Below are positions 22,159-62,417 of a stretch of DNA of 64,000 nucleotides, piece after piece. The first letter of the stretch is position 1, and every line of letters starts with the position of its first letter. The stretch covers positions 4,808 through 68,807 of the forward strand of contig JBDRDJ010000011.1 in assembly GCA_043820815.1 (NCBI GenBank). The letters run 5' to 3'. Under the pieces are notes generated by a model. It saw only the letters and a program-made list of their open reading frames with translations, was not told where the DNA came from and ran no database searches. This DNA comes from Candidatus Omnitrophota bacterium (GTDB lineage Bacteria > Omnitrophota > Gorgyraeia > Duberdicusellales > 4484-171). The position numbers were made by a program, and so were the translations under genes.

Positions 22159-22180
22159 ATTCCCAGAGCTTGAATAAGCA

Positions 22181-22297
22181 TCAAATCTTAAATTAAAAAT
22201 CAAAATGTAAATATCAAAATGTAAAATTCTTAGAGTCACATCAAGATTTTTAATTTTACATTGCAATTTTGATTTTTAATTTTTGATATTTGATTTT
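22181..22297. repeat. AT-rich inverted-repeat element, copy A (second copy at 62075-62193)
   Basis: 17-bp (22189-22205 / 22266-22282) and 11-bp (22218-22228 / 22252-22262) perfect complementary arms. The ends AAAATCAAAATGTAAATAT and ATTTTTAATTTTTGATATTTGATTT are shared with copy B. It lies between convergent genes. Confidence 0.7.
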
Positions 22298-37512: not shown

Positions 37513-38208
37513 ATGAAGAGAAAATTTATTGATAAAGAGGTAATTGAGAGCATTGGTGAAGTCTTAGTATACGATAAGATGCTTAAGACATACCATTTCT
37601 GGATGTGCCGGCCTCAAATTAATACTGTTTTAAGAATTGCAAAGAAAATTCAAAGCCAAAAGCAGGCAGAGGGGGGGGTATCTATTCTAGACATCGGCTG
37701 CGGCACGGCAAGGATTCCAATAACAGTTGCTAAAAAGTTGATAGATTGCAATGTTACGGCTGTTGATCTTTCTCAAAATATGCTGGAAGTTGCCAAAAAT
37801 GACACAAAAGAAGCGGGAATTTCAGACAGAATTGATTTTAAGCTCTCAGACGGCAGTAAGCTTGATTTTGCCGATAACTCTTTTGATATTGTCATGTGTT
37901 CGAATATGCTTCACCACCAAAAGGAACCGGTTAAATTATTAAAAGAGATGAAACGCATGGTAAAAGGAAACGGGGCAGTTTTTGTATTTGATCTTCTAAG
38001 GCCATTCTCAAAATGGATTATAGAGTTTTATGTTGCGGTAGTGGGCATTCCTTACAATAAAGCGCAAAAACAAAGTTACCGTGAGTCGCTTTACAGTTCT
38101 TTTTCTTTAAAAGAAATTAAAGATGCACTTCAGAGTGCAGGATTAAAAGGAGCCATGATTTCTGCACATTTTCCGCATTTTTTAAAATTATTATGGACAC
38201 ATAATTAG
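37513..38208 (+). CDS. Class I SAM-dependent methyltransferase (paralog 1)
   Basis: Motif I ILDIGCGTARI, then acidic VTAVDLS, then post-I/II FDIVMCSNMLHH. Confidence 0.8.
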   Translation: MKRKFIDKEVIESIGEVLVYDKMLKTYHFWMCRPQINTVLRIAKKIQSQKQAEGGVSILDIGCGTARIPITVAKKLIDCNVTAVDLSQNMLEVAKNDTKEAGISDRIDFKLSDGSKLDFADNSFDIVMCSNMLHHQKEPVKLLKEMKRMVKGNGAVFVFDLLRPFSKWIIEFYVAVVGIPYNKAQKQSYRESLYSSFSLKEIKDALQSAGLKGAMISAHFPHFLKLLWTHN

Positions 38209-38256
38209 GGGACGTTCTTAACTATTGTGGAAACATGTTTTTAGAAAGTTACCCTA

Positions 38257-38285
38257 TTGACAACCGTTTCCTGCCGGTTTAGAAT
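38257..38285 (+). promoter_or_regulatory. abiE promoter (TTGACA, 17 nt, TAGAAT)
   Basis: TTGACA at 38257-38262 and TAGAAT at 38280-38285. A perfect palindrome follows immediately. Confidence 0.5.
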
Positions 38286-38287
38286 AT

Positions 38288-38325
38288 ATTTCGTATAAGT
38301 GCTATTATTAGCACTTATACGAAAT
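38288..38325. promoter_or_regulatory. Perfect 17-bp inverted repeat, candidate AbiEi operator
   Basis: ATTTCGTATAAGTGCTA (38288-38304), TTAT, TAGCACTTATACGAAAT (38309-38325). It lies between the -10 box and the abiEi start. Confidence 0.5.
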
Positions 38326-38352
38326 AGTAACCAGATTAAATTATAAATCACA

Positions 38353-38964
38353 ATGCAGTATATTCGATTAAAAGAGTACCTAAAAGATTTTACGGTGTTT
38401 TCGCTTGGCGACATCAAAAAGCTTGATAGGGATTTTCACCGCAGGAGGCTAAATGAATGGCAGGATAAAGGCTATATAAATAAGGTGGTTAAGGGTTACT
38501 ATATTTTTTCTGACTTAGAGCTCAATGAAAATATTCTTTTTGAGATTGCAAACCGGATATACGCGCCTTCGTATATTTCTTTTGAAATGGCGCTTTCTTA
38601 TTATCATTTAATTCCTGAGAGCGTATATCATATAACTTCTGCAACATCACGCAGGACATATAAGTTTGCAACCAAAATAGGAAGTTTTAACTATAGAACC
38701 GTTAACCCTAAGATTTTCTTCGGGTATGATATTATTAGCCATGGCGGGAAACATTTTAAAATAGCAAGTATTGAAAAGGCGGTAATTGACTATTTTTACC
38801 TCAATCCGCAGATAAAAGAAGAAAAGGATTTTAGCAGTCTTCGTTTTGGTAAAAAAGTTTTTTTAAAGAAGGCTAACCATAAGAAATTGAAAGCTTTTCT
38901 TAAGAGAATAGGCAAGAAGAGCTTGTCAGAAAGGTTAGCATCGTTTCTTGATTCTTTAAATTAA
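38353..38964 (+). CDS. abiEi: AbiEi-family antitoxin / transcriptional regulator (type IV TA)
   Basis: N-terminal wHTH-like region LKEYLKDFTVFSLGDIKKL...LNEWQDKGYINKVVKGYYIF is typical of AbiEi_4-type proteins. It is paired with an AbiEii gene. Confidence 0.7.
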   Translation: MQYIRLKEYLKDFTVFSLGDIKKLDRDFHRRRLNEWQDKGYINKVVKGYYIFSDLELNENILFEIANRIYAPSYISFEMALSYYHLIPESVYHITSATSRRTYKFATKIGSFNYRTVNPKIFFGYDIISHGGKHFKIASIEKAVIDYFYLNPQIKEEKDFSSLRFGKKVFLKKANHKKLKAFLKRIGKKSLSERLASFLDSLN

Positions 38965-38976
38965 AGGATTTTTAAT

Positions 38977-39753
38977 ATGCTTGATATTAACCAGATAATT
39001 TCTTTCTACCCCAAACATCTAAGGTCTTTTAAGCTGAATATCCTTCGTGAATACCTTCAGTATAAGATTTTAGAGATTGTGTTTGACTCAGAGGAAGGTA
39101 ATAAATTAGCTTTTATGGGCGGGACTGCAGCCCACATAATACATTCAAACAGCCGGTTTTCCCAAGATTTAGATTTTGATAATCTCGGCTTGAGCAGGAA
39201 AAGTTTTATTAAAATGAGCGAATTAATAAAAAAAAAGCTTAAACTTCAAGGCTATAACTGCGAAATTAAGAATGTTTTTAAAGGCGCTCTTCGCAGTTAT
39301 ATTAGAATTTCCGATATTCTTTTTAAAAGCGGTTTATCCGGGCACAAAGAAGAAAAATTGCTGATTAACCTTGATGTGGAAGCGCAGGGTTTCGATTACC
39401 TCCCTGATAAAATAATTTTAAATAAATTTGATGTTTTTCTATATATCAATGTTGTTCCTCAGGATATTCTGCTTTCTCAGAAGATATTATGCATTTTTAA
39501 TCGTAAACGCCCTATGGGAAGGGATTTCTACGATACGGTATTTCTTTTGGGCAAAACCAAACCCAATATGAATTATTTAAGGTCAAAATTAGGCATAAAG
39601 GACAAAAGGGGTTTGAAAAAGAAATTGGGTTTAAGAATTAAGAGTATGGACTTTAAAGCCTTGGCACGGGATGCCGAGCCGTTTTTATTCGCAGGCGGTG
39701 ATTGCAAAAAAGTTTTATTATTCAGTGAGTATATAAAGAATTATGAATTTTGA
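38977..39753 (+). CDS. abiEii: AbiEii/AbiGii-family nucleotidyltransferase toxin
   Basis: LAFMGGTA...FSQDLDFD nucleotidyltransferase motif, a later GRDFYD block, and about 258 aa. It lies immediately downstream of abiEi. Confidence 0.75.
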   Translation: MLDINQIISFYPKHLRSFKLNILREYLQYKILEIVFDSEEGNKLAFMGGTAAHIIHSNSRFSQDLDFDNLGLSRKSFIKMSELIKKKLKLQGYNCEIKNVFKGALRSYIRISDILFKSGLSGHKEEKLLINLDVEAQGFDYLPDKIILNKFDVFLYINVVPQDILLSQKILCIFNRKRPMGRDFYDTVFLLGKTKPNMNYLRSKLGIKDKRGLKKKLGLRIKSMDFKALARDAEPFLFAGGDCKKVLLFSEYIKNYEF

Positions 39754-39884
39754 AGAGCCGGCAAGATAATATTGTGTAGAAAGATACAGGGCTTTAAAAG
39801 GCATAACAGGAGTTACAAGGATATCAAGGCAATGTGATATAAAGGCTAAAAAAGGGCAATAAGGATAGAAAGGGCAGAAGGGGT

Positions 39885-40577
39885 ATGGAAAGAAAATTTA
39901 CTGAAGAAGAGGGGCTTGATACAAAAGAAGTGGCAGAGGCTTACAGCAGGCTTCAGAAAATATACCATTTCTGGATATGCCGGCCTCAAATTAATACTGT
40001 TTTAAGAATTGCAAAGAAAATTCAAAGCCAAAAGCAGGCAGAGGGGGGGGTATCTATCTTAGATATCGGCTGCGGCCCGGGACAAATACCCATTGATATT
40101 GCAAAGAGGCTGGCAGATTGTAAGGTTACGGCAGTTGATATATCTTCCAACATGCTTGAAGTAGCAAGAAATAACGCAAAAGTTGCAGGGGTTTTAGATA
40201 GAGTAAGTTTTAAGCTTGCCGACGGCAACAAACTTGGTTTTGCCGATAACTCATTTGATATTGTTATGTGTTCGAATATGCTTCACCACCAGAAGAATCC
40301 TTATGCGCTTTTAAGCGAGATGAAAAGGACTGTTAATAAAGGCGGTGTAATAGTTATCGTAGATATAGTCCGTCCGCCTTCAAGGTTTATTGTGAATATG
40401 TTAGCGGCAGCACTAGGTTTTTGGCAGACAAAGATAATGAAGGAAGATTATCGAGCATCGTTTTATAGTGCTTTTTCAATTGAAGAGTTTAAAGGCATGC
40501 TGGAGAGTGCAGGTTTACAAAATTCTATATTTCGGAAGTTTTTCCCCTATTCTGTAATTATTGTAAATGGAAAATAA
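39885..40577 (+). CDS. Class I SAM-dependent methyltransferase (paralog 2)
   Basis: ILDIGCGPGQI, VTAVDIS, FDIVMCSNMLHH. It shares a 94/95-nt tract with paralog 1. Confidence 0.8.
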   Translation: MERKFTEEEGLDTKEVAEAYSRLQKIYHFWICRPQINTVLRIAKKIQSQKQAEGGVSILDIGCGPGQIPIDIAKRLADCKVTAVDISSNMLEVARNNAKVAGVLDRVSFKLADGNKLGFADNSFDIVMCSNMLHHQKNPYALLSEMKRTVNKGGVIVIVDIVRPPSRFIVNMLAAALGFWQTKIMKEDYRASFYSAFSIEEFKGMLESAGLQNSIFRKFFPYSVIIVNGK

Positions 40578-41019: not shown

Positions 41020-42612
41020 ATGGCAGGTTTAAGAAATATTTTCGCTAAATTTTATTTACAAGAAATAAAACGCCTTAAATTGCCCAGAGATCTGATAATG
41101 TGCGCGGTTAAAAGAAACGGCGATAAAATCGCAGTTATTGACCGAGAAAGAGAGATTAACTATAGAGAATTATACGCGAGGTCTAAAAAATTAGCCAATT
41201 CTTTAAAAAATCTGGGGATAAAAAAGGGCGATAAGCTTGCGGTTTTATTATATAACTGCAGGGAGTATTTTGAGATAAGAATAGCGGCATATCTTACGGG
41301 AATAATTCTTGTTCCCATTGTTTGGGATTTAAACTTAGATAATATAAAGTTTATTCTTAACAACTGTCATGCAAAAGCTTTAATTTATCACCCCGAAATA
41401 TTAGGAAGCAATATATCACATCTAAAACAGGAAACAAAAGTTGAATATTTTATCCCTGTATCGCCAAAGCAGTCAGACGATTGTTATGAAACGTTAGTTT
41501 CTAAAGGCAAAACTTCCGATCCTGAAGCTGTGCTTAACAGAGATGATTTAGCCTCGATAAATTTCTCATCAGGCACAACCGGCCGGCCAAAGGGCGTGAT
41601 TCTTACACAAAACAGCTGGATGAACAGTTTTTACAACTTTGTTTTAAATTCAACCAAGGGGAAAGAAGATAATTTAACCTTGCTTCATATTTTATCTCTG
41701 GCAACTGCGGGAGGAGTGGCATTTTTGCCGGCATTCTTTTTAGGTTTTAAAAATATTTTTTTAGAAAAGTTCGATACAGAAAAAACAGTCAGCATTATTA
41801 TAAACCATAAAGTTAACGGCCTTTTCTTAACCCCCAGCCTTTTCATAAGTATTTTTGATTACTGCAAAAGCCGCAATATTAAACCGCCTTTAACAAATAT
41901 CGTCTTAGCCTCAGAGGCTATGCCTGAAAGTAAATTTAAGGAAGCTGTTGAATCTTTCGGCCCCATAATCAGGCATGGTTACGGAATGGTCGAGATTTTG
42001 CCGCCTTTGACTTTGATTTTTTCTAAGGATTATATGATAAACAATAACCGGCAAATCGATTCAAAGAAATTTCTTTCAGCAGGAAAGCCGCTAAAAGGGG
42101 TATGCGTTAAGATAGTAGATAAAGAAAACAAAGAATGTCAAAGTGGAGTAACAGGCAGGGTTATTGTAAAAAGCGCGACAATTTCCAAGGGTTACTTTAA
42201 TAACCCCGAATTGACCGCTAAGCATTACAAGGGCGGCTGGTTTTATACCAATGACTTTGGCTATAAGGATGAGCAGGGTTATATTTATATTATGGGCAGA
42301 AAAGAAGATATTGTAAAAGAGGCAGGCGGCAAACCTGTTTTTAGCCGTGAGATAGAGGAAGTATTGCATAAACACCCCGATGTCTTGTCAGCCTGTGTAT
42401 TTTGTCAAGATGAGGCAAAGGTTGTTGCCTGTGTTTTTCCAAGGGCAAATTCAAAGGCGCTCTCTCAAAAGGAACTTAGTAACTTTTGCAAGGAGAATCT
42501 TAAAGAGAGGGCTGTTCCCGATGAAATCTGCATTTTACCCAAAGTGATAGTGCGCGCAACCGGTAAACTTGACAGAAGCGCAATACAAAAAGAATACAGG
42601 GGACGTCCTTAA
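41020..42612 (+). CDS. AMP-dependent synthetase/ligase (acyl-CoA synthetase family)
   Basis: AMP-binding motif FSSGTTGRPKGV, then GYGMVE, then YTNDFGYKDEQGYIYIMGRKEDIVK and a terminal GKLDR. Confidence 0.88.
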   Translation: MAGLRNIFAKFYLQEIKRLKLPRDLIMCAVKRNGDKIAVIDREREINYRELYARSKKLANSLKNLGIKKGDKLAVLLYNCREYFEIRIAAYLTGIILVPIVWDLNLDNIKFILNNCHAKALIYHPEILGSNISHLKQETKVEYFIPVSPKQSDDCYETLVSKGKTSDPEAVLNRDDLASINFSSGTTGRPKGVILTQNSWMNSFYNFVLNSTKGKEDNLTLLHILSLATAGGVAFLPAFFLGFKNIFLEKFDTEKTVSIIINHKVNGLFLTPSLFISIFDYCKSRNIKPPLTNIVLASEAMPESKFKEAVESFGPIIRHGYGMVEILPPLTLIFSKDYMINNNRQIDSKKFLSAGKPLKGVCVKIVDKENKECQSGVTGRVIVKSATISKGYFNNPELTAKHYKGGWFYTNDFGYKDEQGYIYIMGRKEDIVKEAGGKPVFSREIEEVLHKHPDVLSACVFCQDEAKVVACVFPRANSKALSQKELSNFCKENLKERAVPDEICILPKVIVRATGKLDRSAIQKEYRGRP

Positions 42613-42971
42613 CTTTATTAACTTAGCGTTTATTCATAAAAGGATTCAAGGCTATAAAAGGCCGGGAAGGCAAAAAAGCTAGAAAGGGAAAGGGCAGTAA
42701 GATAGAAACTAATGATGTTATGATGTATTTGCCAACACTATAAAGGGTTAGTGTATAATTACTCAATACATTGAGATAATATATGGAATATTCACAACTT
42801 ACTTTGTATAAAAGAGATATAGCAAAAGAAATAAGTAATTACCTCTTGAGAAAGCGGCATGAGATTGGCGTATGAGGCTTCTAAGATATCTTCCTTTGAA
42901 TAAGTATGAAATATCTACTTTTTATCCTTGATGGAAGTATGAATAAATGAGATAATTATGCTGGAGGAGAA

Positions 42972-44264
42972 ATGGTTGCAAAAGATAAGTTAAAAGAGAT
43001 TATTCTTGCTAACAGGGATTTTATAGCCCGTGAGATTAATGGGCTGGCCAGAAGAGAAAATATCAATGCGCCCGAGAATACTAGAAAAATTGTTATATTT
43101 TATGGAGTAAGACGAAGCGGTAAAACGTTTATACTTTTTGACTTAATGAAAAGATATTTTCCTCAGGCCCTCTATATAGATTTTGAAGATGAGCGCCTAG
43201 GTGATTTTACAGGTAAAGACCTTGAAAATTTAAAAGATGCATTTTGTGAACTTTTCCCTGAATTGCTTGAAAAGAAGAAATATTTTTTCTTAGACGAGAT
43301 TCAAAATGTAAAAGGGTGGGAGAAATTTTGCCGCAGGGCAGTAGAAAGAGAAAATATAAGCATATTTACGGCTGATTCATCATCAAAAATTCATCCCTTA
43401 GAAATTCATACCTCACTCAGGGGAAGGCAATGGAGCATAGAAATTACCCCTTTTTCCTTTAGGGAGTATTTATCAGCGAATAACATTCCCCACACGAATG
43501 AATATTTGTTTGGCCCCAAGAAAATTATAGTGAAAAAGCATTTCTCTGGATATATGAAATGGGGAGGTTTTCCCGAAGTAGTATTATCAAGAAATGATTT
43601 CGACAAAAAGAAATTACTTAATGAATATATGCAGGCTATGTTCTTTAGAGATTTGGTAGAAAGGTTCGGGATGAATAACACGCATCTTTTGGATAGCCTG
43701 GCAGATAAATTATTTTCTTCATTTGCCTGCAAGTTTTCCATAAACGCTTTTTTCAAACAATATAAAAATAGATTTCCATTCTCTAAAGACAGTTTATACG
43801 AATATTACAAAAACTTTATTAAAAGTATGCTCATTTTTGAAGTAAAAATTTTTGCCGAATCAACGTATAAAAGGCAGAGAAATCCGGTTAAGATTTATGT
43901 GGCAGACCCCGGAATAGCCCGTAAAATAACTTCGCAGGATAGGGGGCGGGTTTTAGAAAACATCGTCTTTTTAGAATTGCGAAAAAACAGCTCGGATATA
44001 TTTTACTTTACTGGAAGAGGAGAATGCGATTTTGTGGCAAAGTCGGAAAAAGGCAGCTTTGCCTGCCAGGTCTGTTTTGAATTAAACGAAGAAAATAAAG
44101 AAAGAGAAATTCAGGGATTGTTGGAATGCTGCGGATTTTTAGGCGAAAAAAGAGGGGTAATCTTAACTCATGACCAGGAAGATAAAATAAAGGTAAATAA
44201 TATAGAAGTAATAATCCTTCCGGCCTGGAAATGGCTGTTGGCAAAAAACAAAATAAATGGCTGA
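42972..44264 (+). CDS. AAA_14-type ATPase with DUF4143 / PD-(D/E)XK-like domain (copy 3)
   Basis: GVRRSGKTF, FFLDEIQN, C-terminal GECDFVAKSEKG...CQVCFEL. Its stop overlaps the ATG of the radical-SAM 5' fragment (ATGGCTGA). Confidence 0.8.
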   Translation: MVAKDKLKEIILANRDFIAREINGLARRENINAPENTRKIVIFYGVRRSGKTFILFDLMKRYFPQALYIDFEDERLGDFTGKDLENLKDAFCELFPELLEKKKYFFLDEIQNVKGWEKFCRRAVERENISIFTADSSSKIHPLEIHTSLRGRQWSIEITPFSFREYLSANNIPHTNEYLFGPKKIIVKKHFSGYMKWGGFPEVVLSRNDFDKKKLLNEYMQAMFFRDLVERFGMNNTHLLDSLADKLFSSFACKFSINAFFKQYKNRFPFSKDSLYEYYKNFIKSMLIFEVKIFAESTYKRQRNPVKIYVADPGIARKITSQDRGRVLENIVFLELRKNSSDIFYFTGRGECDFVAKSEKGSFACQVCFELNEENKEREIQGLLECCGFLGEKRGVILTHDQEDKIKVNNIEVIILPAWKWLLAKNKING

Positions 44265-44327
44265 GATTTGGCTCTGGAATTCAATACCAACGCGTAAAAG
44301 GGCGCCTTCGGACGGGTTCTTGGAGAA
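44257..44327 (+). pseudogene. Orphan 5' fragment (71 nt) of a B12-radical SAM gene; duplicate of 45640-45710
   Basis: 66/71 nt identical to the start of the 45640 gene and encodes the identical MAEIWLWNSIPTRKRAPSDGFLE. Homology stops abruptly at 44328, where the promoter region of the next ATPase begins. Confidence 0.7.
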
Positions 44328-44413
44328 TGACCAGAATTTTTATATTATGCCAAAGTATAAAATGTTAGCTTTAAATTTATACTATGGTATAATATGTAAG
44401 AGGAAGGGTTTAG

Positions 44414-45592
44414 ATGTTCAGAAGATATCTGGAAAAACATATATTAGAGGATTTAGAGGATAAAATGGTTTTTATCAGCGGCCCCCGGCAGGTGGGTAAA
44501 ACCACACTGTCCTTACAGATTGCCGATAATTATTTCTCCCAGAAATATAGCTATTTAAACTGGGACAACAGGCAAGACAGAAAATTGATACTAAACGGAA
44601 CACTGCCGGCCCAGAAGCAATTGTTGATTTTTGACGAAATTCATAAATACCGAAAATGGAAAAATTATCTAAAGGGTGAACACGACAAGCATAAGGATAG
44701 ATTTAAGATACTGGTAACCGGCAGTGCCCGGTTAGATATATACAGAAAAGGCGGGGATTCTCTTTTAGGCAGATACCGCTCCTATGGCCTGCACCCGTTA
44801 ACATTAGCGGAACTTTTAGGCGCGCAAGCTTCTCAAACTCCTTTTAATGAAATTTCTTTTTCAGGCAGGCATAAAGAATGTAAACGGTTATTTGATATCC
44901 TGTTTAAATTCGGCGGTTTTCCGGAATTAGTGGTTAAACAAAATGAAAGGGCTCTTAGGCGCTGGCATAATGAAAGAGCAGACAGGTTAATCAAGGAAGA
45001 TATCAGAGATATTGAAAATCTAAGGGACTTATCCTCTTTACAAGTTTTAGTTGAGATTTTACCGGATAAGGTTGCTTCGCTGTTCTCGTTAAATTCGCTG
45101 CGGGAAGATTTAAACGTTACTCATAAGACCATATCTTCCTGGGTTGACATACTTGAGCGGTTTTACTATCATTTTAGAATTTATCCTTTCCAGAACAGAT
45201 TTATAAAGAGCCTGAGGAAAGAACCAAAGATTTATTTATGGGATTGGTCAGAGGTCAAAGATGAAAATATAAGATTAGAAAATATGATAGCTTCACACCT
45301 GCTTAAATTCTGCCACTTTCTTTTTGATGTCCAGGGGTATAAAGCGCAGTTGCATTATTTGAGGGATAGAGAGCAAAGAGAGGTTGATTTTCTTGTAAGC
45401 GTAGATAAGAAGCCCTGGTTTTGCGTTGAAGTAAAAAGCGTATTTAAAAAAGTACCCGCCTCTTTAAGATATTTTGGCAGCAGGTTAAAAGTTCCCTTTG
45501 TATTTGAAGTGATAAAAGAGGAAAACATTGATTTTATTAAGGAGAATACCCGCATTATTAGCGCAAGCAAATTTCTTAGCGGGCTTGTTTAG
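44414..45592 (+). CDS. AAA_14-type ATPase with DUF4143 / PD-(D/E)XK-like domain (copy 4)
   Basis: GPRQVGKTT, LIFDEIHK, C-terminal REVDFLVSVDKKPWFCVEVKS. An extended -10 TGgTATAAT lies upstream. Confidence 0.8.
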   Translation: MFRRYLEKHILEDLEDKMVFISGPRQVGKTTLSLQIADNYFSQKYSYLNWDNRQDRKLILNGTLPAQKQLLIFDEIHKYRKWKNYLKGEHDKHKDRFKILVTGSARLDIYRKGGDSLLGRYRSYGLHPLTLAELLGAQASQTPFNEISFSGRHKECKRLFDILFKFGGFPELVVKQNERALRRWHNERADRLIKEDIRDIENLRDLSSLQVLVEILPDKVASLFSLNSLREDLNVTHKTISSWVDILERFYYHFRIYPFQNRFIKSLRKEPKIYLWDWSEVKDENIRLENMIASHLLKFCHFLFDVQGYKAQLHYLRDREQREVDFLVSVDKKPWFCVEVKSVFKKVPASLRYFGSRLKVPFVFEVIKEENIDFIKENTRIISASKFLSGLV

Positions 45593-45639
45593 GTAATTTA
45601 GCAATAATTATTAAATAGTGATACATTGTGAGATAAAAT

Positions 45640-47418
45640 ATGGCTGAAATTTGGCTTTGGAATTCGATACCAACGCGTAAAAGAGCGCCTTCCGACGGGT
45701 TCTTGGAGAACGGGCTCTCGATTCTTAAAGGCTATGTTGAGGAGCGCGGGCATAAGGCGCGCGTTATCGACTGGCAAAAAAGCTCTTTTTACGGCAGTTT
45801 ATGTTTTAGATGGCTTCTTGCGATAAACCGGCTTTCGACAATTTTAATATTCCGGCTTGCCAGGAAGGGGAGAAGCTTTGCAAAAGCATATTTTCCCGTC
45901 TTTAATCTCATCCAGGAGGCGGTATCTTATGTTAATAAGAAAAGTATGAGCAAGCATTTAGAAAAGCTGGCAGACGAAGCAGTAAATGCGGGAGTTAAAA
46001 TCTTCGGGATTAAGGTGTGGTATGGAGAAGCTTTTGAGTGGGCTGATTGGTTGACAAAGCGCCTTAAAGAAAAAGACCCTTCAATATTAGTTATAGCCGG
46101 CGGTTTTCACACAACCCTTTATGAAGATGACCTTTTAAGAGAATCTTCGTTTGATTTAGGGGTGGTTTCCGAGGGGGAGCGCGCGCTTGAAATAATTCTC
46201 GATATAGCTGATAAGCATATTAATAATTGGGATAAGGATAGAGCGCTTGAGGATGTAAGAAAAGAGATAAATGAAAACAGGCTCAAGAATGTGGTATATA
46301 GGGACGGCAAAGATATTAAGCTTACTGACAGGTACAGCCAGGAACTTCATAATAAAACCTTTCCCAAATATAATAAGGAAGATATCGAAGGAAAATTAAG
46401 AGTTCACATATTGATTGATTCGGTGGGATGCCCCTGGGGCAGGTGCAATTTTTGCACACACTGGCATATACACCCTAATTTTACTCCCAGGCCAATTGAT
46501 GATATTGTTTCCGAAATAGAGTATATGCTAAAGAAAGGCGTAGGCGTATTTAGGTTTGCCGGTTCGGAAACTCCTCCTGGTTTTGGCGCGCGCATTGCAA
46601 AGGCTATTTTAAATAAAGATTTAAAAATAAAATATGCCATAGGATGCCGCGCTATAAAGGGGATAACATCTGATGAAGAAAGATATGAAATGGTTGTTTC
46701 GGAATTTGAAGTGATGTTACAATCGGGCTTGTGCGGTATATTTATGGGCGGTGAGAGCGGAAACGATATAATAAACGATAAAATGATGAATAAAGGGATA
46801 AATTGCGCTGAAATAATAGAAACCGCCCGGGCATACAGGGAGGCGCAGGAAAAAACAGGCATATCAGCTTTTTTTGGGTTAGCTTTAATATACCCGCACC
46901 CCTTAGTTGATGGTATTACTTTTGAGCAGGCGTTTAACGATGATCTTAATCTTATTAAAGCTCTTAATCCGGATTCTGTTATTGTAACGCCTTCATCTCC
47001 TTTTAAAAACAGTGTTTGGTATAGAGAAAAAGAGAAGTTTCATTTTGATATTCCCGATGATTACATAAAGAGGATGATTAGATACGAATATGTGCTTTAT
47101 AAGCCGCCTTCTCTGTGGCCTTCGCTGGGGGATGTATCTGCTCAAGGAGTAGGTTTTAAACAGGCGCTTTTGATGTGTGAAGGCTTAAGAAAGGCAATTG
47201 AGAAAATTGGCATCCAAACTGACTTAACTGATGATTGTTTTCTTCTTATGCAGGCGGCAGGCTATTTGGGAAAAGAAGGCATGGCTCGGTTTAAGAGAGA
47301 GACTTCAGTTGACCTTGTTTCAGCTGATTACCGAAATATTGACCAAATCGCCGAACAGCTTAACGAATACAGCAAAACCCTCGCCGAATCCAATTACTCA
47401 TTAAATGATGGTTTTTGA
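45640..47418 (+). CDS. B12-binding domain radical SAM enzyme, copy 2 (non-canonical Cx4Cx2C)
   Basis: N-terminal B12-binding-like domain (GLSILKGYVEERGHKARVID...VIAGGFHTT). The cluster motif reads CPWGRCNFC at 46429-46455. Confidence 0.75.
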   Translation: MAEIWLWNSIPTRKRAPSDGFLENGLSILKGYVEERGHKARVIDWQKSSFYGSLCFRWLLAINRLSTILIFRLARKGRSFAKAYFPVFNLIQEAVSYVNKKSMSKHLEKLADEAVNAGVKIFGIKVWYGEAFEWADWLTKRLKEKDPSILVIAGGFHTTLYEDDLLRESSFDLGVVSEGERALEIILDIADKHINNWDKDRALEDVRKEINENRLKNVVYRDGKDIKLTDRYSQELHNKTFPKYNKEDIEGKLRVHILIDSVGCPWGRCNFCTHWHIHPNFTPRPIDDIVSEIEYMLKKGVGVFRFAGSETPPGFGARIAKAILNKDLKIKYAIGCRAIKGITSDEERYEMVVSEFEVMLQSGLCGIFMGGESGNDIINDKMMNKGINCAEIIETARAYREAQEKTGISAFFGLALIYPHPLVDGITFEQAFNDDLNLIKALNPDSVIVTPSSPFKNSVWYREKEKFHFDIPDDYIKRMIRYEYVLYKPPSLWPSLGDVSAQGVGFKQALLMCEGLRKAIEKIGIQTDLTDDCFLLMQAAGYLGKEGMARFKRETSVDLVSADYRNIDQIAEQLNEYSKTLAESNYSLNDGF

Positions 47419-47439
47419 ATATTACAATAAAAGGTTTTG

Positions 47440-47880
47440 AAACCACGAATAACACTAATAATCACGAATGGATATAGAAATAATATTTAAAGAAGAGAGT
47501 TATAAGATAATTGGGGCATGTATTCAGGTCTACAACGAAAAAGGTAATGGATTTCTTGAGGCAGTATATCAAGAGTGTTTAGCCATTGAATTTAAAGAAC
47601 AAGCGATTCCTTTTGTTGAGAAGCCGAAGATTGATATTACTTATAAACGTAAGACATTGCGACAAACCTATGAACCAGACTTTTTATGTTTTAATGAAAT
47701 AATTATTGAACTTAAAGCAACGAAATCGCTCGCTGATGAGCATAGAGCACAGATTCTTAACTATCTCAAAGCCACAGGTAAACGCTTAGGAATTTTAATA
47801 AACTTCGGTAGTTACCCAAAACTTACCTATGAACGCCTTGTAAAATAACTATTCGTGACAATTTGTGTAATTCGTGGTTT
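47440..47880 (+). mobile_element. GxxExxY gene bracketed by 30-bp imperfect terminal inverted repeats (candidate miniature element)
   Basis: Left AAACCACGAATAACACTAATAATCACGAAT (47440-47469) matches the reverse complement of 47851-47880 at 26/30 positions. The left arm overlaps the start codon. The right arm starts 3 nt after the stop. Confidence 0.4.
47468..47848 (+). CDS. GxxExxY protein (PD-(D/E)XK nuclease superfamily)
   Basis: GNGFLEAVYQECL contains the eponymous GxxExxY motif. The downstream YEPDFLCFNEIIIELKA gives D...ExK. 126 aa. Confidence 0.85.
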   Translation: MDIEIIFKEESYKIIGACIQVYNEKGNGFLEAVYQECLAIEFKEQAIPFVEKPKIDITYKRKTLRQTYEPDFLCFNEIIIELKATKSLADEHRAQILNYLKATGKRLGILINFGSYPKLTYERLVK

Positions 47881-47971
47881 AAAAATAAATAGAAAATAGA
47901 CAAAAATACAAATAAATTACAGAGATTAAATAATTATTATCTCAGTATTAGGCCTGCGGGTTTTTGTTTTT

Positions 47972-48643: not shown

Positions 48644-48753
48644 TTTCTTTTACGGTTACAGTAGGGGGCGGCAGATCTTGCCGCCCTTACAATATTTTGT
48701 TATTTTTTTAGGTCCGGTATAAGTTTATCATTTCTTTAAGGAAAGTTCAACAT

Positions 48754-48815
48754 AAAAGGGGTCACACCTATTTTTCCGGATTTCTTCCCCAATAAAAATA
48801 GGTGTGACCCCTTTT
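48754..48815. repeat. Perfect 22-bp inverted repeat with an 18-nt loop in a divergent promoter region
   Basis: AAAAGGGGTCACACCTATTTTT (48754-48775) and AAAAATAGGTGTGACCCCTTTT (48794-48815) are exact reverse complements. Confidence 0.8.
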
Positions 48816-48914
48816 ACTTTGAAAGTTTCTCTTTTTTTCCATTGATAATTGTGCTATAATTAGCCCCAATCTAAAAAGGAGATATTAAGCAGGGCACGGC
48901 CTGCTGTAAATTTA

Positions 48915-62056: not shown

Positions 62057-62074
62057 GCATGTCCGATTGTTATA

Positions 62075-62193
62075 TCAAAAATCAAAATGTAAATATTAAA
62101 ATAACAAATAAAAATTCAAAATGTTTAGATTTAAATATTAAAATTTTGATTTTTACATTGTCATTTTAATTTTTAATTTTTGATATTTGATTT
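62075..62193. repeat. AT-rich inverted-repeat element, copy B
   Basis: It shares the left end AAAATCAAAATGTAAATAT and the right end ATTTTTAATTTTTGATATTTGATTT with copy A (22181-22297). Confidence 0.65.
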
Positions 62194-62201
62194 ATTATGT
62201 A

Positions 62202-62230: not shown

Positions 62231-62251
62231 TATTCTCCCTTTGAATATTTT

Positions 62252-62335
62252 GCGAGGGTGGCGGAATTGGCAGACGCACTAGCTTGAGGGGCTAGCGGTA
62301 GAGATACCGTAGGGGTTCAACTCCCCTCCCTCGCA
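62252..62335 (+). tRNA. tRNA-Leu (anticodon GAG), type II with long variable arm, no encoded CCA
   Basis: Hand-folded. Acceptor GCGAGGG/CCCTCGC plus A. Anticodon stem CTAGC/GCTAG with loop TTGAGGG. Variable arm CGGTA-GAGA-TACCG. T arm AGGGG-TTCAACT-CCCCT. Confidence 0.85.
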
Positions 62336-62417
62336 TTTCTCGTTTTGCGTATTGCGTTGTGCGTAATGCGTAAAAAAGAAAACGCAATACGCAAAACGCA
62401 TAACGCAAAACGAAATT

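What the first reader, a model, noticed from the sequence alone, without database searches (positions are those of the whole stretch)
44257..45710. 71-nt duplicate of a radical-SAM gene 5' end flanks an ATPase cassette; all 5 differences are synonymous
Positions 44257-44327 and 45640-45710 are 66/71 identical. The five differences fall at repeat positions 9, 18, 27, 45 and 54. All are third codon positions, so both copies encode the same MAEIWLWNSIPTRKRAPSDGFLE. Copy 1 overlaps the stop of ATPase 3 (ATGGCTGA, a translational-coupling arrangement) and then breaks off into the promoter of ATPase 4. Copy 2 starts the intact rSAM gene. ATPase 4 is therefore bracketed by direct repeats of host-gene sequence. 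One explanation is Campbell-type integration of a cassette carrying a surrogate gene 5' end. Another is that the locus is the remnant of two tandem ATPase-rSAM modules, with the first rSAM deleted. The synonymous-only pattern means both copies evolved as coding sequence before being juxtaposed.
Basis: seen in the sequence. Interest (0 to 1): 0.65.

Follow-up and report, generated by a model that had tools for sequence, protein, structure and literature searches.

The report
Gene-end duplication flanking inserted defence gene
A self-contained 1.3-kb candidate anti-phage gene was inserted next to a lipid-pathway enzyme gene and left a duplicated stub of that gene's start, and the same scar recurs around this gene family in unrelated microbes, showing how such genes can be added without breaking host genes.

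Summary
Positions 44257-44327 and 45640-45710 are 66/71 identical and all five differences are synonymous. The repeat really runs about 44250-44329 vs 45635-45712, with a sixth synonymous difference. The 'ATPases' are PADLOC PDC-S01 candidate defence genes (AAA_14 + DUF4143, with an intact PD-(D/E)XK motif). In relatives the AMP-ligase gene directly abuts this rSAM gene, so 42613-45639 is inserted DNA.

ATPase 4 is a compact unit: twin-palindrome promoter plus ORF, with similarity ending at the stop codon. It is 68-76% identical across phyla. The window is not a one-off: 14 of 66 loci of this family carry direct repeats of host gene ends (31-137 nt, 85-100% identical) bracketing the unit, against 0 of 64 controls. 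Pooled differences between copies look like two functional alleles (25 synonymous, 11 non-synonymous, pN/pS 0.12).

My best reading is a homology-assisted insertion-duplication (Campbell-type single crossover or a related anchored event) that stacked a second cassette in a hotspot and left a stub of the flanking gene. A transposon-like long target duplication remains a live rival. How the unit makes primary insertions is unknown.

The parts
41020..42612 (+). AMP-binding (acyl-CoA ligase-type) gene. In relatives it is the conserved neighbour immediately upstream of the rSAM gene.
   Evidence: Pfam AMP-binding E = 3.7e-66. It lies directly upstream of the rSAM (gap 10-200 nt) in about 16 related loci and in L050.
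42613..42971 (+). Spacer carrying ATPase 3's own promoter-like site. It holds no stubs of neighbouring genes.
   Evidence: TTGATG-17-GATAAT at 42928-42956. Local alignments to AMP-ligase 3' and rSAM 5' sequence score no more than 13.
42972..44264 (+). ATPase 3, a PDC-S01-type gene (AAA_14 + DUF4143) and the older insertion. Its ORF reads through into rSAM codons 2-3, giving 6-7 extra C-terminal residues (AKNKING).
   Evidence: Pfam. PADLOC PDC-S01 E = 2.7e-93. C-terminus compared with ATPase 2.
44250..44329 (+). Left direct repeat: an orphan stub made of 7 nt of upstream sequence plus the first 24 codons (and 1 nt) of the rSAM gene. The ATG is at 44257.
44257..44463 (+). Residual 68-codon ORF that starts in the stub and runs across the ATPase 4 promoter into the ATPase 4 start. 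It is probably meaningless.
   Evidence: ORF list.
44330..44413 (+). Conserved non-coding head of the ATPase 4 unit. It contains degenerate palindromic box 1 (44343-44362), the -35 TTAGCT (44365-44370), palindromic box 2 TTATAC-TATG-GTATAA (44377-44392), which overlaps the extended -10 TGGTATAAT (44385-44393), and then the RBS.
   Evidence: Conserved in nearly all 80 family loci. Palindrome statistics. Similarity between near-identical units in unrelated contexts starts 79-88 nt upstream of the ATG.
44414..45592 (+). ATPase 4: a PDC-S01-type AAA+ ATPase with a winged-helix region and a C-terminal PD-(D/E)XK domain (D325, E339, K341).
   Evidence: Pfam. PADLOC. About 8000 homologues, the best 68-76% identical across phyla. 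Invariant residues. AF2 model pLDDT 88. Foldseek matches RuvB, RFC, ORC and STAND proteins.
45593..45634 (+). 42-nt spacer. It is not part of the conserved unit and matches nothing else. It is either the donor's native rSAM leader or junction filler.
   Evidence: Unit similarity ends at the stop codon. No match elsewhere.
45635..45712 (+). Right direct repeat: the functional copy, forming the 5' end of the intact rSAM gene.
45640..47418 (+). Intact B12-binding radical SAM gene (592 aa). Its N-terminal peptide is among the most conserved parts of the family.
   Evidence: Pfam. 115 homologues. Alignment A1 consensus MAxIWLWNSIATRKRSPSDGFLENGL.

Best explanation
The repeat is an insertion-duplication scar.

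Starting point (shown): the ancestral arrangement was AMP-ligase followed directly by the rSAM gene. An earlier event placed ATPase 3 directly against the rSAM start codon.

The insertion (inferred): a second, unrelated PDC-S01 unit (its own promoter plus ATPase 4) arrived on DNA from a related lineage. In that lineage the unit already sat about 45 nt upstream of that lineage's rSAM gene. The incoming piece recombined with the resident chromosome through the shared rSAM 5' sequence. This was either a single crossover of a circularised fragment (Campbell-type) or a closely related one-sided, homology-anchored event. The other end was joined illegitimately at rSAM nucleotide 73.

The result (shown): the first ~80 nt of the rSAM region are present twice, once from each lineage. 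This is why the copies differ only at synonymous sites. The left copy is a dead stub behind ATPase 3. The right copy heads the working gene, which is now presumably transcribed by read-through from ATPase 4.

Wider pattern (shown): the same process stacks cassettes in hotspots elsewhere.

Still open: the physical intermediate, and how the compact unit makes its very first insertion at a new site.
For: 1. AMP-ligase directly followed by the rSAM is the rule in relatives.
2. ATPase 4 is a horizontally spreading unit. It is 68-76% identical across phyla, while the host rSAM's best hit is 59%. It sits in unrelated contexts.
3. Bracketing direct repeats of host gene ends occur in 14 of 66 family loci, against 0 of 40 rSAM genes and 0 of 24 AMP-ligase genes. 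The best score from 600 mismatched flank pairs is 14, against 31-94 observed. Fisher P = 6e-5.
4. Repeat lengths are broad (31-137 nt) and the arms are ragged (0-175 nt on the left, 3-390 nt on the right).
5. Deleting the cassette plus one repeat restores the host ORF.
6. Differences between copies are allele-like: 25 synonymous against 11 non-synonymous, pN/pS 0.12, and 26 of 36 at third codon positions (P = 2e-6).
7. In L104 both copies end with ...VPE plus a stop, but with different codons (GAG TAG vs GAA TGA). The left junction is therefore a native gene end from another allele.
8. L051, L053 and L132 show one hotspot (GT to EpsH) holding different cassette stacks in hosts that are 91-93% identical, with stubs of the flanking genes between cassettes.
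9. In E. coli, single crossovers of recircularised donor DNA left 109-950 bp duplications flanking foreign DNA in 56 of 60 events (PMC3240628).
Against: - The window's copies share no identical run longer than 17 nt, which is poor substrate for a RecA crossover inside the 73-80 nt segment itself. The model therefore needs either a longer anchor in the rSAM gene or later replacement of one copy by another allele.
- Classical homology-facilitated illegitimate recombination gives deletions, not duplications (PMC3240628).
- Near-identical units in unrelated contexts end at consistent positions, about -79 to -88 and the stop codon +/-6 nt. Random fragment capture does not predict this.
- In the window and in L053, L101 and L122 the repeat abuts the unit almost directly, as a target duplication would.
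- No donor or empty allele of this lineage is available.
- No circular form was observed. L126's identical contig ends are ambiguous.
Confidence: 0.55

Rival explanations
1. The unit (promoter plus ATPase-nuclease gene) is itself a mobile element. Its insertion creates a long, variable target-site duplication, for example by widely staggered breaks that are filled in. The breaks could be made by its own PD-(D/E)XK nuclease/AAA+ protein or by a host pathway it recruits. On this reading the copies were identical at birth. The synonymous-only differences arose later, when ordinary homologous recombination replaced one copy with another allele.
For: - Unit ends are consistent between near-identical copies in unrelated contexts.
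- Repeats directly abut the unit in the window (left side) and in L053, L101 and L122.
- Young insertions have identical or near-identical repeats: L122 31/31, L093 61/62, L102 38/39, L104 78/80.
- The signature recurs in this family and in other PDC-S01 subfamilies (L127 and L064; L096).
- The nuclease triad is conserved.
- The twin palindromes at the left end could be protein-binding sites.
- 41 of 42 upstream neighbours are co-oriented.
Against: - Repeat length is very broad (31-137 nt).
- Unit ends are ragged by several nucleotides, and in some copies the last codons or the stop codon are replaced.
- Many inserts carry 25-390 nt of extra non-unit DNA between the unit and the repeat.
- There are no terminal inverted repeats and no transposase or integrase.
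- L104's left junction looks like a native gene end.
- Allele-like divergence needs an extra step under this model.
- A 314-nt bracketing duplication also occurs around non-ATPase cargo in L092.
- About 75% of loci show no repeat.
Confidence: 0.22
2. The locus once held two complete tandem modules, ATPase 3-rSAM(A) and ATPase 4-rSAM(B). A deletion then removed rSAM(A) from codon 25 up to the ATPase 4 promoter.
For: Both copies evolved as coding sequence. Redundant paralogues are often deleted. A large homologous insertion followed by trimming would give the same end product.
Against: - ATPase 3 and ATPase 4 are only 22% identical, so the modules were not a tandem duplication.
- No relative has two copies of this rSAM in tandem.
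- The deletion end would have to coincide, within a few nt, with the left end of the conserved ATPase 4 unit.
- The same tidy outcome would have to recur at a dozen or more unrelated loci, with stubs of only 31-137 nt.
Confidence: 0.1
3. Assembly artefact: a chimera of two strains, or of a chromosome and a free circular molecule, created a duplication that does not exist.
For: The source is a metagenome-assembled genome. Family members often sit on short contigs that end near the cassette. L126 has identical contig ends.
Against: - The two copies differ every 9-18 nt, so their k-mers are distinct and the path is unambiguous.
- Both novel junctions must exist in reads.
- Equivalent structures with diverged repeats occur in many independent assemblies from different pipelines.
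Confidence: 0.03

Closest known systems
Campbell-type (single-crossover) insertion-duplication of circular or recircularised DNA carrying a short homologous segment
   Same: Foreign DNA ends up bracketed by direct repeats of the homologous host segment, and the repeat length equals the homology that was carried. This was seen experimentally as 109-950 bp lacZ duplications in 56 of 60 events (PMC3240628). The two copies can derive from donor and recipient alleles.
   Different: Here the repeats are shorter (31-137 nt) and in some loci too diverged for an easy crossover within them. No circular intermediate, plasmid backbone or transfer route is known. The cargo is a recurrent, compact single-gene unit.
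Homology-facilitated illegitimate recombination, and the 'orphan' gene arrays it is invoked for (T6SS effector-immunity arrays, Rhs and CDI orphan 3' ends)
   Same: There is one conserved flank acting as an anchor and one illegitimate joint. New modules are added sequentially at a hotspot, with leftover stubs of the conserved gene between modules (PMC5361080).
   Different: The classical outcome is an insertion with a deletion of similar size and 3-10 bp of microhomology (PMC3240628). Here host sequence is duplicated, nothing is lost, and microhomology cannot be assessed without the donor.
Integrative elements that carry a replacement end of their target gene (att duplications, e.g. at tRNA 3' ends). 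This comparison rests on my own knowledge.
   Same: Direct repeats of target-gene sequence flank the element, and the gene stays intact because the element side supplies a copy of its end.
   Different: There is no integrase in the insert. The duplicated sequence differs at every locus. There is no shared identical core. Either the 5' or the 3' gene end can be duplicated.
Transposon target-site duplications. This comparison rests on my own knowledge.
   Same: A direct duplication of the target flanks an inserted unit that has fairly consistent ends.
   Different: Known transposases give short, fixed-length duplications (2-15 bp). Here the lengths are 31-137 nt and variable. There are no terminal inverted repeats, no transposase, and extra DNA often lies between the unit and the repeat.
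PADLOC PDC-S01 candidate defence genes (AAA_14 + DUF4143; COG1373)
   Same: All four window ATPases match PDC-S01 HMMs (E = 1e-51 to 1e-146). The family is described as an ATPase fused to a PD-(D/E)XK domain and as the fourth most common defence candidate in prokaryotes. It is experimentally unvalidated and has been transferred repeatedly between domains (PMC12988326; PMC3424549).
   Different: In the papers I could search, nothing describes the family's self-contained twin-palindrome promoter, its tight unit boundaries or its flanking host-gene duplications.

Membership tests
PDC-S01 (PADLOC candidate single-gene defence system) | Match to PDC-S01 profile HMMs | tested here: met
   ATPase 1-4: E = 5.9e-146, 2.2e-117, 2.7e-93 and 6e-51.
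PDC-S01 (PADLOC candidate single-gene defence system) | AAA_14 ATPase fused to a DUF4143 PD-(D/E)XK domain, with catalytic residues present | tested here: met
   Pfam AAA_14 + DUF4143. Walker A and B motifs, D325, E339 and K341 are conserved. AF2 model pLDDT 88.
PDC-S01 (PADLOC candidate single-gene defence system) | Protects against phage | not testable with these tools
   The literature states that validation is pending (PMC12988326).
Campbell-type insertion-duplication | Foreign DNA bracketed by direct repeats of a host-homologous segment, with host sequence restored when the insert plus one repeat is removed | tested here: met
   The window and 6 further loci with repeats in host coding sequence.
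Campbell-type insertion-duplication | The two repeat copies derive from donor and recipient alleles | tested here: met
   pN/pS 0.12, and 26 of 36 differences at third codon positions. L104 has alternative stop codons.
Campbell-type insertion-duplication | Enough uninterrupted identity within the repeat for a homologous crossover | tested here: inconclusive
   The longest identical run in the window is 17 nt. Young loci are 97-100% identical.
Campbell-type insertion-duplication | A circular intermediate carrying the cassette plus one repeat | not testable with these tools
   Only L126's identical 123-nt contig ends hint at this, and they are ambiguous.
Homology-facilitated illegitimate recombination (classical) | Insertion accompanied by deletion of recipient DNA | tested here: not met
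   Host sequence is duplicated and none is missing. The classical outcome is described in PMC3240628.
Homology-facilitated illegitimate recombination (classical) | 3-10 bp microhomology at the illegitimate joint | not testable with these tools
   The donor's sequence left of the unit is unknown.
Site-specific integrative element with a surrogate gene end | Integrase or recombinase gene within the element | tested here: not met
   The only gene between the repeats is ATPase 4.
Site-specific integrative element with a surrogate gene end | The same att sequence at all copies of the element, with an identical core | tested here: not met
   The repeats differ at every locus. The window has no identical run longer than 17 nt.
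Transposon / insertion sequence | Transposase, terminal inverted repeats and a fixed-length target duplication | tested here: not met
   No transposase domain. No inverted repeats at the unit ends. Repeats are 31-137 nt.
Integron gene cassette | attC site at the cassette boundary, cassette arrays, and an integrase nearby | tested here: inconclusive
   The twin palindromes form one large imperfect palindrome at the unit's 5' end. However, the units sit singly inside operons, no integrase is in the window, and attC models were not run.

The most novel reading that the evidence does not exclude
PDC-S01 genes may be autonomous single-gene mobile elements. On this reading the unit is a 1.26-kb module of a twin-palindrome head plus an AAA+/PD-(D/E)XK protein gene, and its own product binds the head and promotes excision or target breakage. 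Integration would then leave 30-140-nt target duplications. That would be a previously unrecognised kind of mobile element, and it would explain why this is one of the commonest 'defence candidates' in prokaryotes and why it sits inside operons without disrupting them.
Probability: 0.15. Interest if true: 0.9.

Novelty: new variant of a known kind. Interest (0 to 1): 0.6.

Why it matters
Defence and toxin-antitoxin genes turn over quickly in genomic hotspots, often with no recognisable mobile-element machinery, and how they get there is an open question. This locus and its relatives give a readable molecular scar for one route: short duplicated stubs of the conserved flanking gene, carrying allele-type differences. 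The scar shows that cassettes are added next to each other by recombination anchored in the flanking gene, and that the duplication is what keeps the host gene (here an rSAM of a lipid-type pathway) intact.

The work also defines PDC-S01, the fourth most common candidate defence gene, as a compact self-promoted unit with probable self-regulation. It gives concrete predictions for experiments: operator binding, nuclease activity, circle formation, and stub-bearing versus empty alleles in populations. Practically, such stubs can be used to date and orient cassette acquisitions in metagenomes. They also explain assembly breaks around these genes.

Tried and rejected
1. Exact look-ups of the window's rSAM and ATPase 4 proteins found no source contig. 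The MAG is not among the GTDB representatives. I therefore could not search for other paralogues in the same genome, an exact empty allele or a donor.
2. The period-9 spacing of the differences is real in the window but absent from every other repeat pair. I treat it as chance.
3. Rfam found nothing above noise in 40-50 kb. The simple promoter scan missed the ATPase 4 promoter because its -35 is degenerate.
4. The sequence search against solved structures found nothing. Foldseek gave only generic AAA+ relatives.
5. Literature searches on DUF4143 and AAA_14/COG1373 gave almost nothing on function or mobility. The original HFIR papers are not held.
6. The closest ATPase 4 relatives (L135, L136) are in unrelated contexts and not next to an rSAM.
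7. The spacer after ATPase 4 and the left joint match nothing else.
8. Plasmid and phage collections hold only distant relatives (46% identity or less), and five isolate plasmid loci showed no bracketing repeats. That sample is too small to interpret.
9. Many other direct-repeat pairs in the fetched loci turned out to be non-coding REP- or attC-like palindromic repeats. I did not count them as the same phenomenon.
10. Only one of 45 complete contigs has identical ends, so a general 'free circle' interpretation is not supported.
Full report
**1. Observation**

The repeat is real. Positions 44257-44327 and 45640-45710 are 66/71 identical. The five differences fall at repeat positions 9, 18, 27, 45 and 54. 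All are third codon positions and synonymous, and both copies encode MAEIWLWNSIPTRKRAPSDGFLE.

Position 72 (AAT/AAC) is a sixth synonymous difference and position 73 matches, giving 67/73. Self-blastn extends the pair a few bases upstream of the ATG, to 44250-44327 vs 45635-45710, with a 2-nt indel (E = 1.6e-23). Five random substitutions would all be synonymous with probability about 4e-4 to 2e-3.

ATPase 3's TGA (44262-44264) overlaps the copy-1 ATG as ATGGCTGA. Copy 2 heads an intact 592-aa B12-binding radical SAM gene.

**2. Context**

The window comes from a Candidatus Omnitrophota MAG. The nearest rSAM homologue among 5.8 billion proteins is only 59% identical.

The region from 27 to 50 kb is a lipid/polyketide-type operon. 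It encodes:
- an MMPL exporter, a LolA-like protein and a DUF1302 protein;
- two B12-rSAMs;
- two methyltransferases;
- an AMP-ligase, an acyltransferase and a KAS.

Seven accessory modules interrupt it:
- four AAA_14+DUF4143 ATPases;
- a HEPN-MNT pair;
- AbiEi/AbiEii;
- a PDDEXK_3 gene.

All four ATPases match PADLOC's PDC-S01. The literature describes this candidate single-gene defence family as the fourth most common in prokaryotes, an ATPase fused to a PD-(D/E)XK domain, and still unvalidated (PMC12988326; PMC3424549).

**3. Ancestral state**

In 49 loci from GTDB genomes, and in L050, the AMP-ligase gene lies directly upstream of this rSAM type (gap 10-200 nt) in about 16 loci. So 42613-45639 (ATPase 3, the stub, ATPase 4 and the spacer) is inserted DNA.

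The rSAM N-terminal peptide is one of the most conserved parts of the family, with consensus MAxIWLWNSIATRKRSPSDGFLENGL. That explains why working genes tolerate only synonymous change there.

ATPase 3 and ATPase 4 are 22% identical, so the two 'modules' are not a tandem duplication. ATPase 3's ORF carries 6-7 extra residues that read into rSAM codons 2-3.

**4. The ATPase 4 unit**

ATPase 4 has about 8000 strong homologues. The best are 68-76% identical, all about 392 aa, and come from Nitrospinota, Ratteibacteria, Elusimicrobiota, Planctomycetota, Thermodesulfovibrionales and Omnitrophota. They sit in unrelated contexts.

Upstream of nearly every member is a conserved non-coding block. It holds two palindromic boxes (TTTcTAC-N4-GTAgAAA). 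One lies upstream of a TTGACA -35. The other overlaps an extended -10 (TGGTATAAT). The half-sites co-vary between subfamilies. I infer that this is a self-regulated promoter.

Near-identical units (97-99% nt) in unrelated contexts share sequence only from about -79 to -88 through to the stop codon +/-6 nt. In some copies the last codons or the stop codon itself are replaced. So the unit is compact, with ends that are consistent but not exact to the nucleotide.

The protein keeps Walker A and B motifs and a D...ExK nuclease triad. It models confidently (pLDDT 88), and its AAA+/winged-helix part resembles RuvB, RFC, ORC and STAND proteins.

In the window the unit spans about 44330-45592. The stub ends 1-6 nt before it. 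The 42 nt after its stop codon are not part of the unit and match nothing else.

**5. The pattern recurs**

I aligned the 400 nt upstream of the promoter against the 400 nt downstream of the stop in 66 usable family loci.

| Test set | Loci with bracketing repeats | Scores |
|---|---|---|
| ATPase 4 family | 14 of 66 | 31-94 |
| 600 mismatched flank pairs | none | maximum 14 |
| rSAM genes (control) | 0 of 40 | maximum 14 |
| AMP-ligase genes (control) | 0 of 24 | maximum 13 |

Fisher P = 6e-5.

Two of the 14 (L131, a simple repeat, and L050, a REP-like element) are doubtful. The repeats are 31-137 nt long and 85-100% identical. The left copy is continuous with upstream host DNA and the right copy with downstream host DNA.

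Where the repeat lies in clear host coding sequence:

| Loci | What is duplicated |
|---|---|
| L053, L104, L105 | 3' end of the upstream gene |
| Window, L078, L116, L122 | 5' end, including RBS and ATG, of the downstream gene |

Deleting the cassette plus one repeat restores the host ORF.

Other PDC-S01 subfamilies show the same pattern (L127 and L064; L096). A 314-nt duplication that includes the 5' end of a large host gene brackets a non-ATPase insert in L092. Many other repeat pairs in these loci are non-coding palindromic REP- or attC-like elements, and I did not count them.

**6. The copies are two alleles**

Pooled over the six clearly coding pairs:
- 25 synonymous against 11 non-synonymous differences (pN/pS 0.12);
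- 26 of 36 differences at third codon positions (P = 2e-6);
- a synonymous fraction of 0.69 against 0.21 expected under neutrality (P = 6e-10).

For the window alone, dS is about 0.57 and dN is 0.

A stub decaying in place would accumulate mostly non-synonymous changes. L105's orphan copy does carry one frameshifting indel on top of allele-type differences.

In L104 both copies end ...VPE followed by a stop, but with different codons (GAG TAG vs GAA TGA). The junction next to the cassette is therefore a complete native gene end from another allele.

**7. Cassette stacking**

L051 and L053 share GT gene + ATPase unit at 81% nt identity, up to 11 nt past the stop. L053 then has a GT 3' stub followed by a second, unrelated cassette before EpsH.

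L132, whose GT is 93% identical, has the same GT-to-EpsH gap filled with ParD/PemK, a PLD nuclease, a different PDC-S01 gene and AbiE. It then has a 76-codon EpsH stub followed by yet another PDC-S01 unit with its own twin palindromes.

This is the window's architecture: ATPase 3, rSAM stub, ATPase 4, rSAM.

**8. Mechanism**

The best fit is a homology-assisted insertion-duplication. DNA from a related lineage, carrying the unit next to its own rSAM 5' end, recombined through that shared sequence. The other end was joined illegitimately.

Single crossovers of recircularised donor DNA are documented to leave 109-950 bp duplications around foreign DNA, in 56 of 60 events. Classical HFIR instead gives deletions (PMC3240628). 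HFIR-like displacement has been proposed for orphan arrays with leftover stubs (PMC5361080).

This model has weaknesses:
- The window's copies lack any identical run longer than 17 nt.
- The unit's ends are too consistent for random fragment capture.

A transposon-like long target duplication, followed by allelic replacement, therefore remains a serious rival. I put it at about 0.2. Counting against it:
- the breadth of repeat lengths;
- ragged ends;
- extra DNA between unit and repeat;
- the absence of a transposase and of terminal inverted repeats;
- the L104 junction.

I consider the tandem-module-plus-deletion model (about 0.1) and an assembly artefact (about 0.03) unlikely.

**9. Verdict**

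The feature is a scar from acquiring a PDC-S01 cassette, and the duplication is what preserved the rSAM gene. What is new is that the signature recurs in this very common gene family. The unit's compact, self-promoted architecture is also newly described here. How the unit makes its primary insertions remains open.

Noticed in passing
window 47435-47885: The PDDEXK_3 gene (47468-47848) lies exactly between 41-nt inverted repeats (47435-47475 and 47845-47885, 83% complementary), directly after the rSAM stop. It looks like a small element with terminal inverted repeats.
   Followed up: no
window 37513-40577: Two methyltransferase paralogues (58% aa identity) bracket the AbiEi/AbiEii module. They share a 334-nt core at 82.6% nt identity (37590-37923 vs 39962-40295). 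This may be the same insertion-duplication at whole-gene scale, or gene conversion.
   Followed up: partly
window 44257-44329 vs 45640-45712: All six differences fall at multiples of 9 (positions 9, 18, 27, 45, 54 and 72), that is, every third codon. The post hoc probability is about 7e-4. No other repeat pair shows this, so it is probably chance.
   Followed up: yes
window 44343-44393; L052-L131 upstream regions; L132 6770-6867: The promoter of the ATPase 4 family carries two palindromic boxes. Box 2 is the reverse complement of box 1, including the asymmetric 4-nt spacer (CAAA/TTTG). Half-sites co-vary between subfamilies (TAC/GTA, GAC/GTC, TTGCA/TGCAA). This suggests operator sites for the encoded protein. 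Distant plasmid homologues also have repeated upstream motifs.
   Followed up: partly
L093, L097, L099, L100, L105, L117, L129, L064, L072 (unit flanks): Units that are 97-99% identical in unrelated contexts share sequence only from about -79 to -88 through to the stop codon +/-6 nt. Some copies have a different last codon or a different stop codon. The unit has no 3' untranslated part.
   Followed up: yes
L131 7-136 / 1461-1585; L106 and L109 flanks; L083 and L086 flanks: Several units sit inside short tandem repeats that are present on both sides: ACCAAACAG, GGGTTAA and GATTGGTGA types.
   Followed up: no
L050 1480-1611, 3986-4037, 5507-5558; L065, L093, L097, L099, L129 flanks: A REP-like palindrome (AAATAAATGGT..CTGTCCCTATTT) lies next to units in six loci. 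In L050 it was called as a 43-aa 'gene' between the AMP-ligase and the rSAM.
   Followed up: no
L126 1-123 and 2329-2451; 616-721 and 2145-2250: A 2451-nt contig has identical 123-nt ends (a GT2 gene fragment) and an inner 106-nt repeat pair (96% identical) around the ATPase. This could be a nested duplication, a tandem array or a circle.
   Followed up: partly
L066 309-381, ~1720-1790, 2040-2112: Three copies of the same host segment lie around one ATPase unit, which suggests repeated rounds of the same process.
   Followed up: no
L100 283-436/1623-1777; L098 2605-2733/3767-3897; L085 2231-2373/5180-5321; L101 6092-6260/7532-7700; L083 1563-1645/4124-4207: HEPN-MNT, small toxin-antitoxin and HipBA-like modules are bracketed by 80-170-nt non-coding, palindrome-rich direct repeats. 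These may be attC- or REP-like cassette boundaries.
   Followed up: partly
window 22173-22296 and 62070-62196: A palindromic repeat of about 125 nt occurs twice. The second copy lies just upstream of tRNA-Leu (62251-62336).
   Followed up: no
window 48739-48830: A long hairpin (37-nt arms, 86% complementary) lies in the divergent region between the acyltransferase (-) and the KAS (+). It gives only noise-level Rfam hits.
   Followed up: partly
L015 8299-9954: An IS481-like transposase and a DUF559 gene lie between the AMP-ligase and the rSAM in another Omnitrophota genome, so the same junction tolerates other insertions.
   Followed up: partly
L052-L131 (neighbour orientation): The gene upstream of the unit is co-oriented with it in 41 of 42 loci. 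The downstream gene is co-oriented in 26 of 39.
   Followed up: partly
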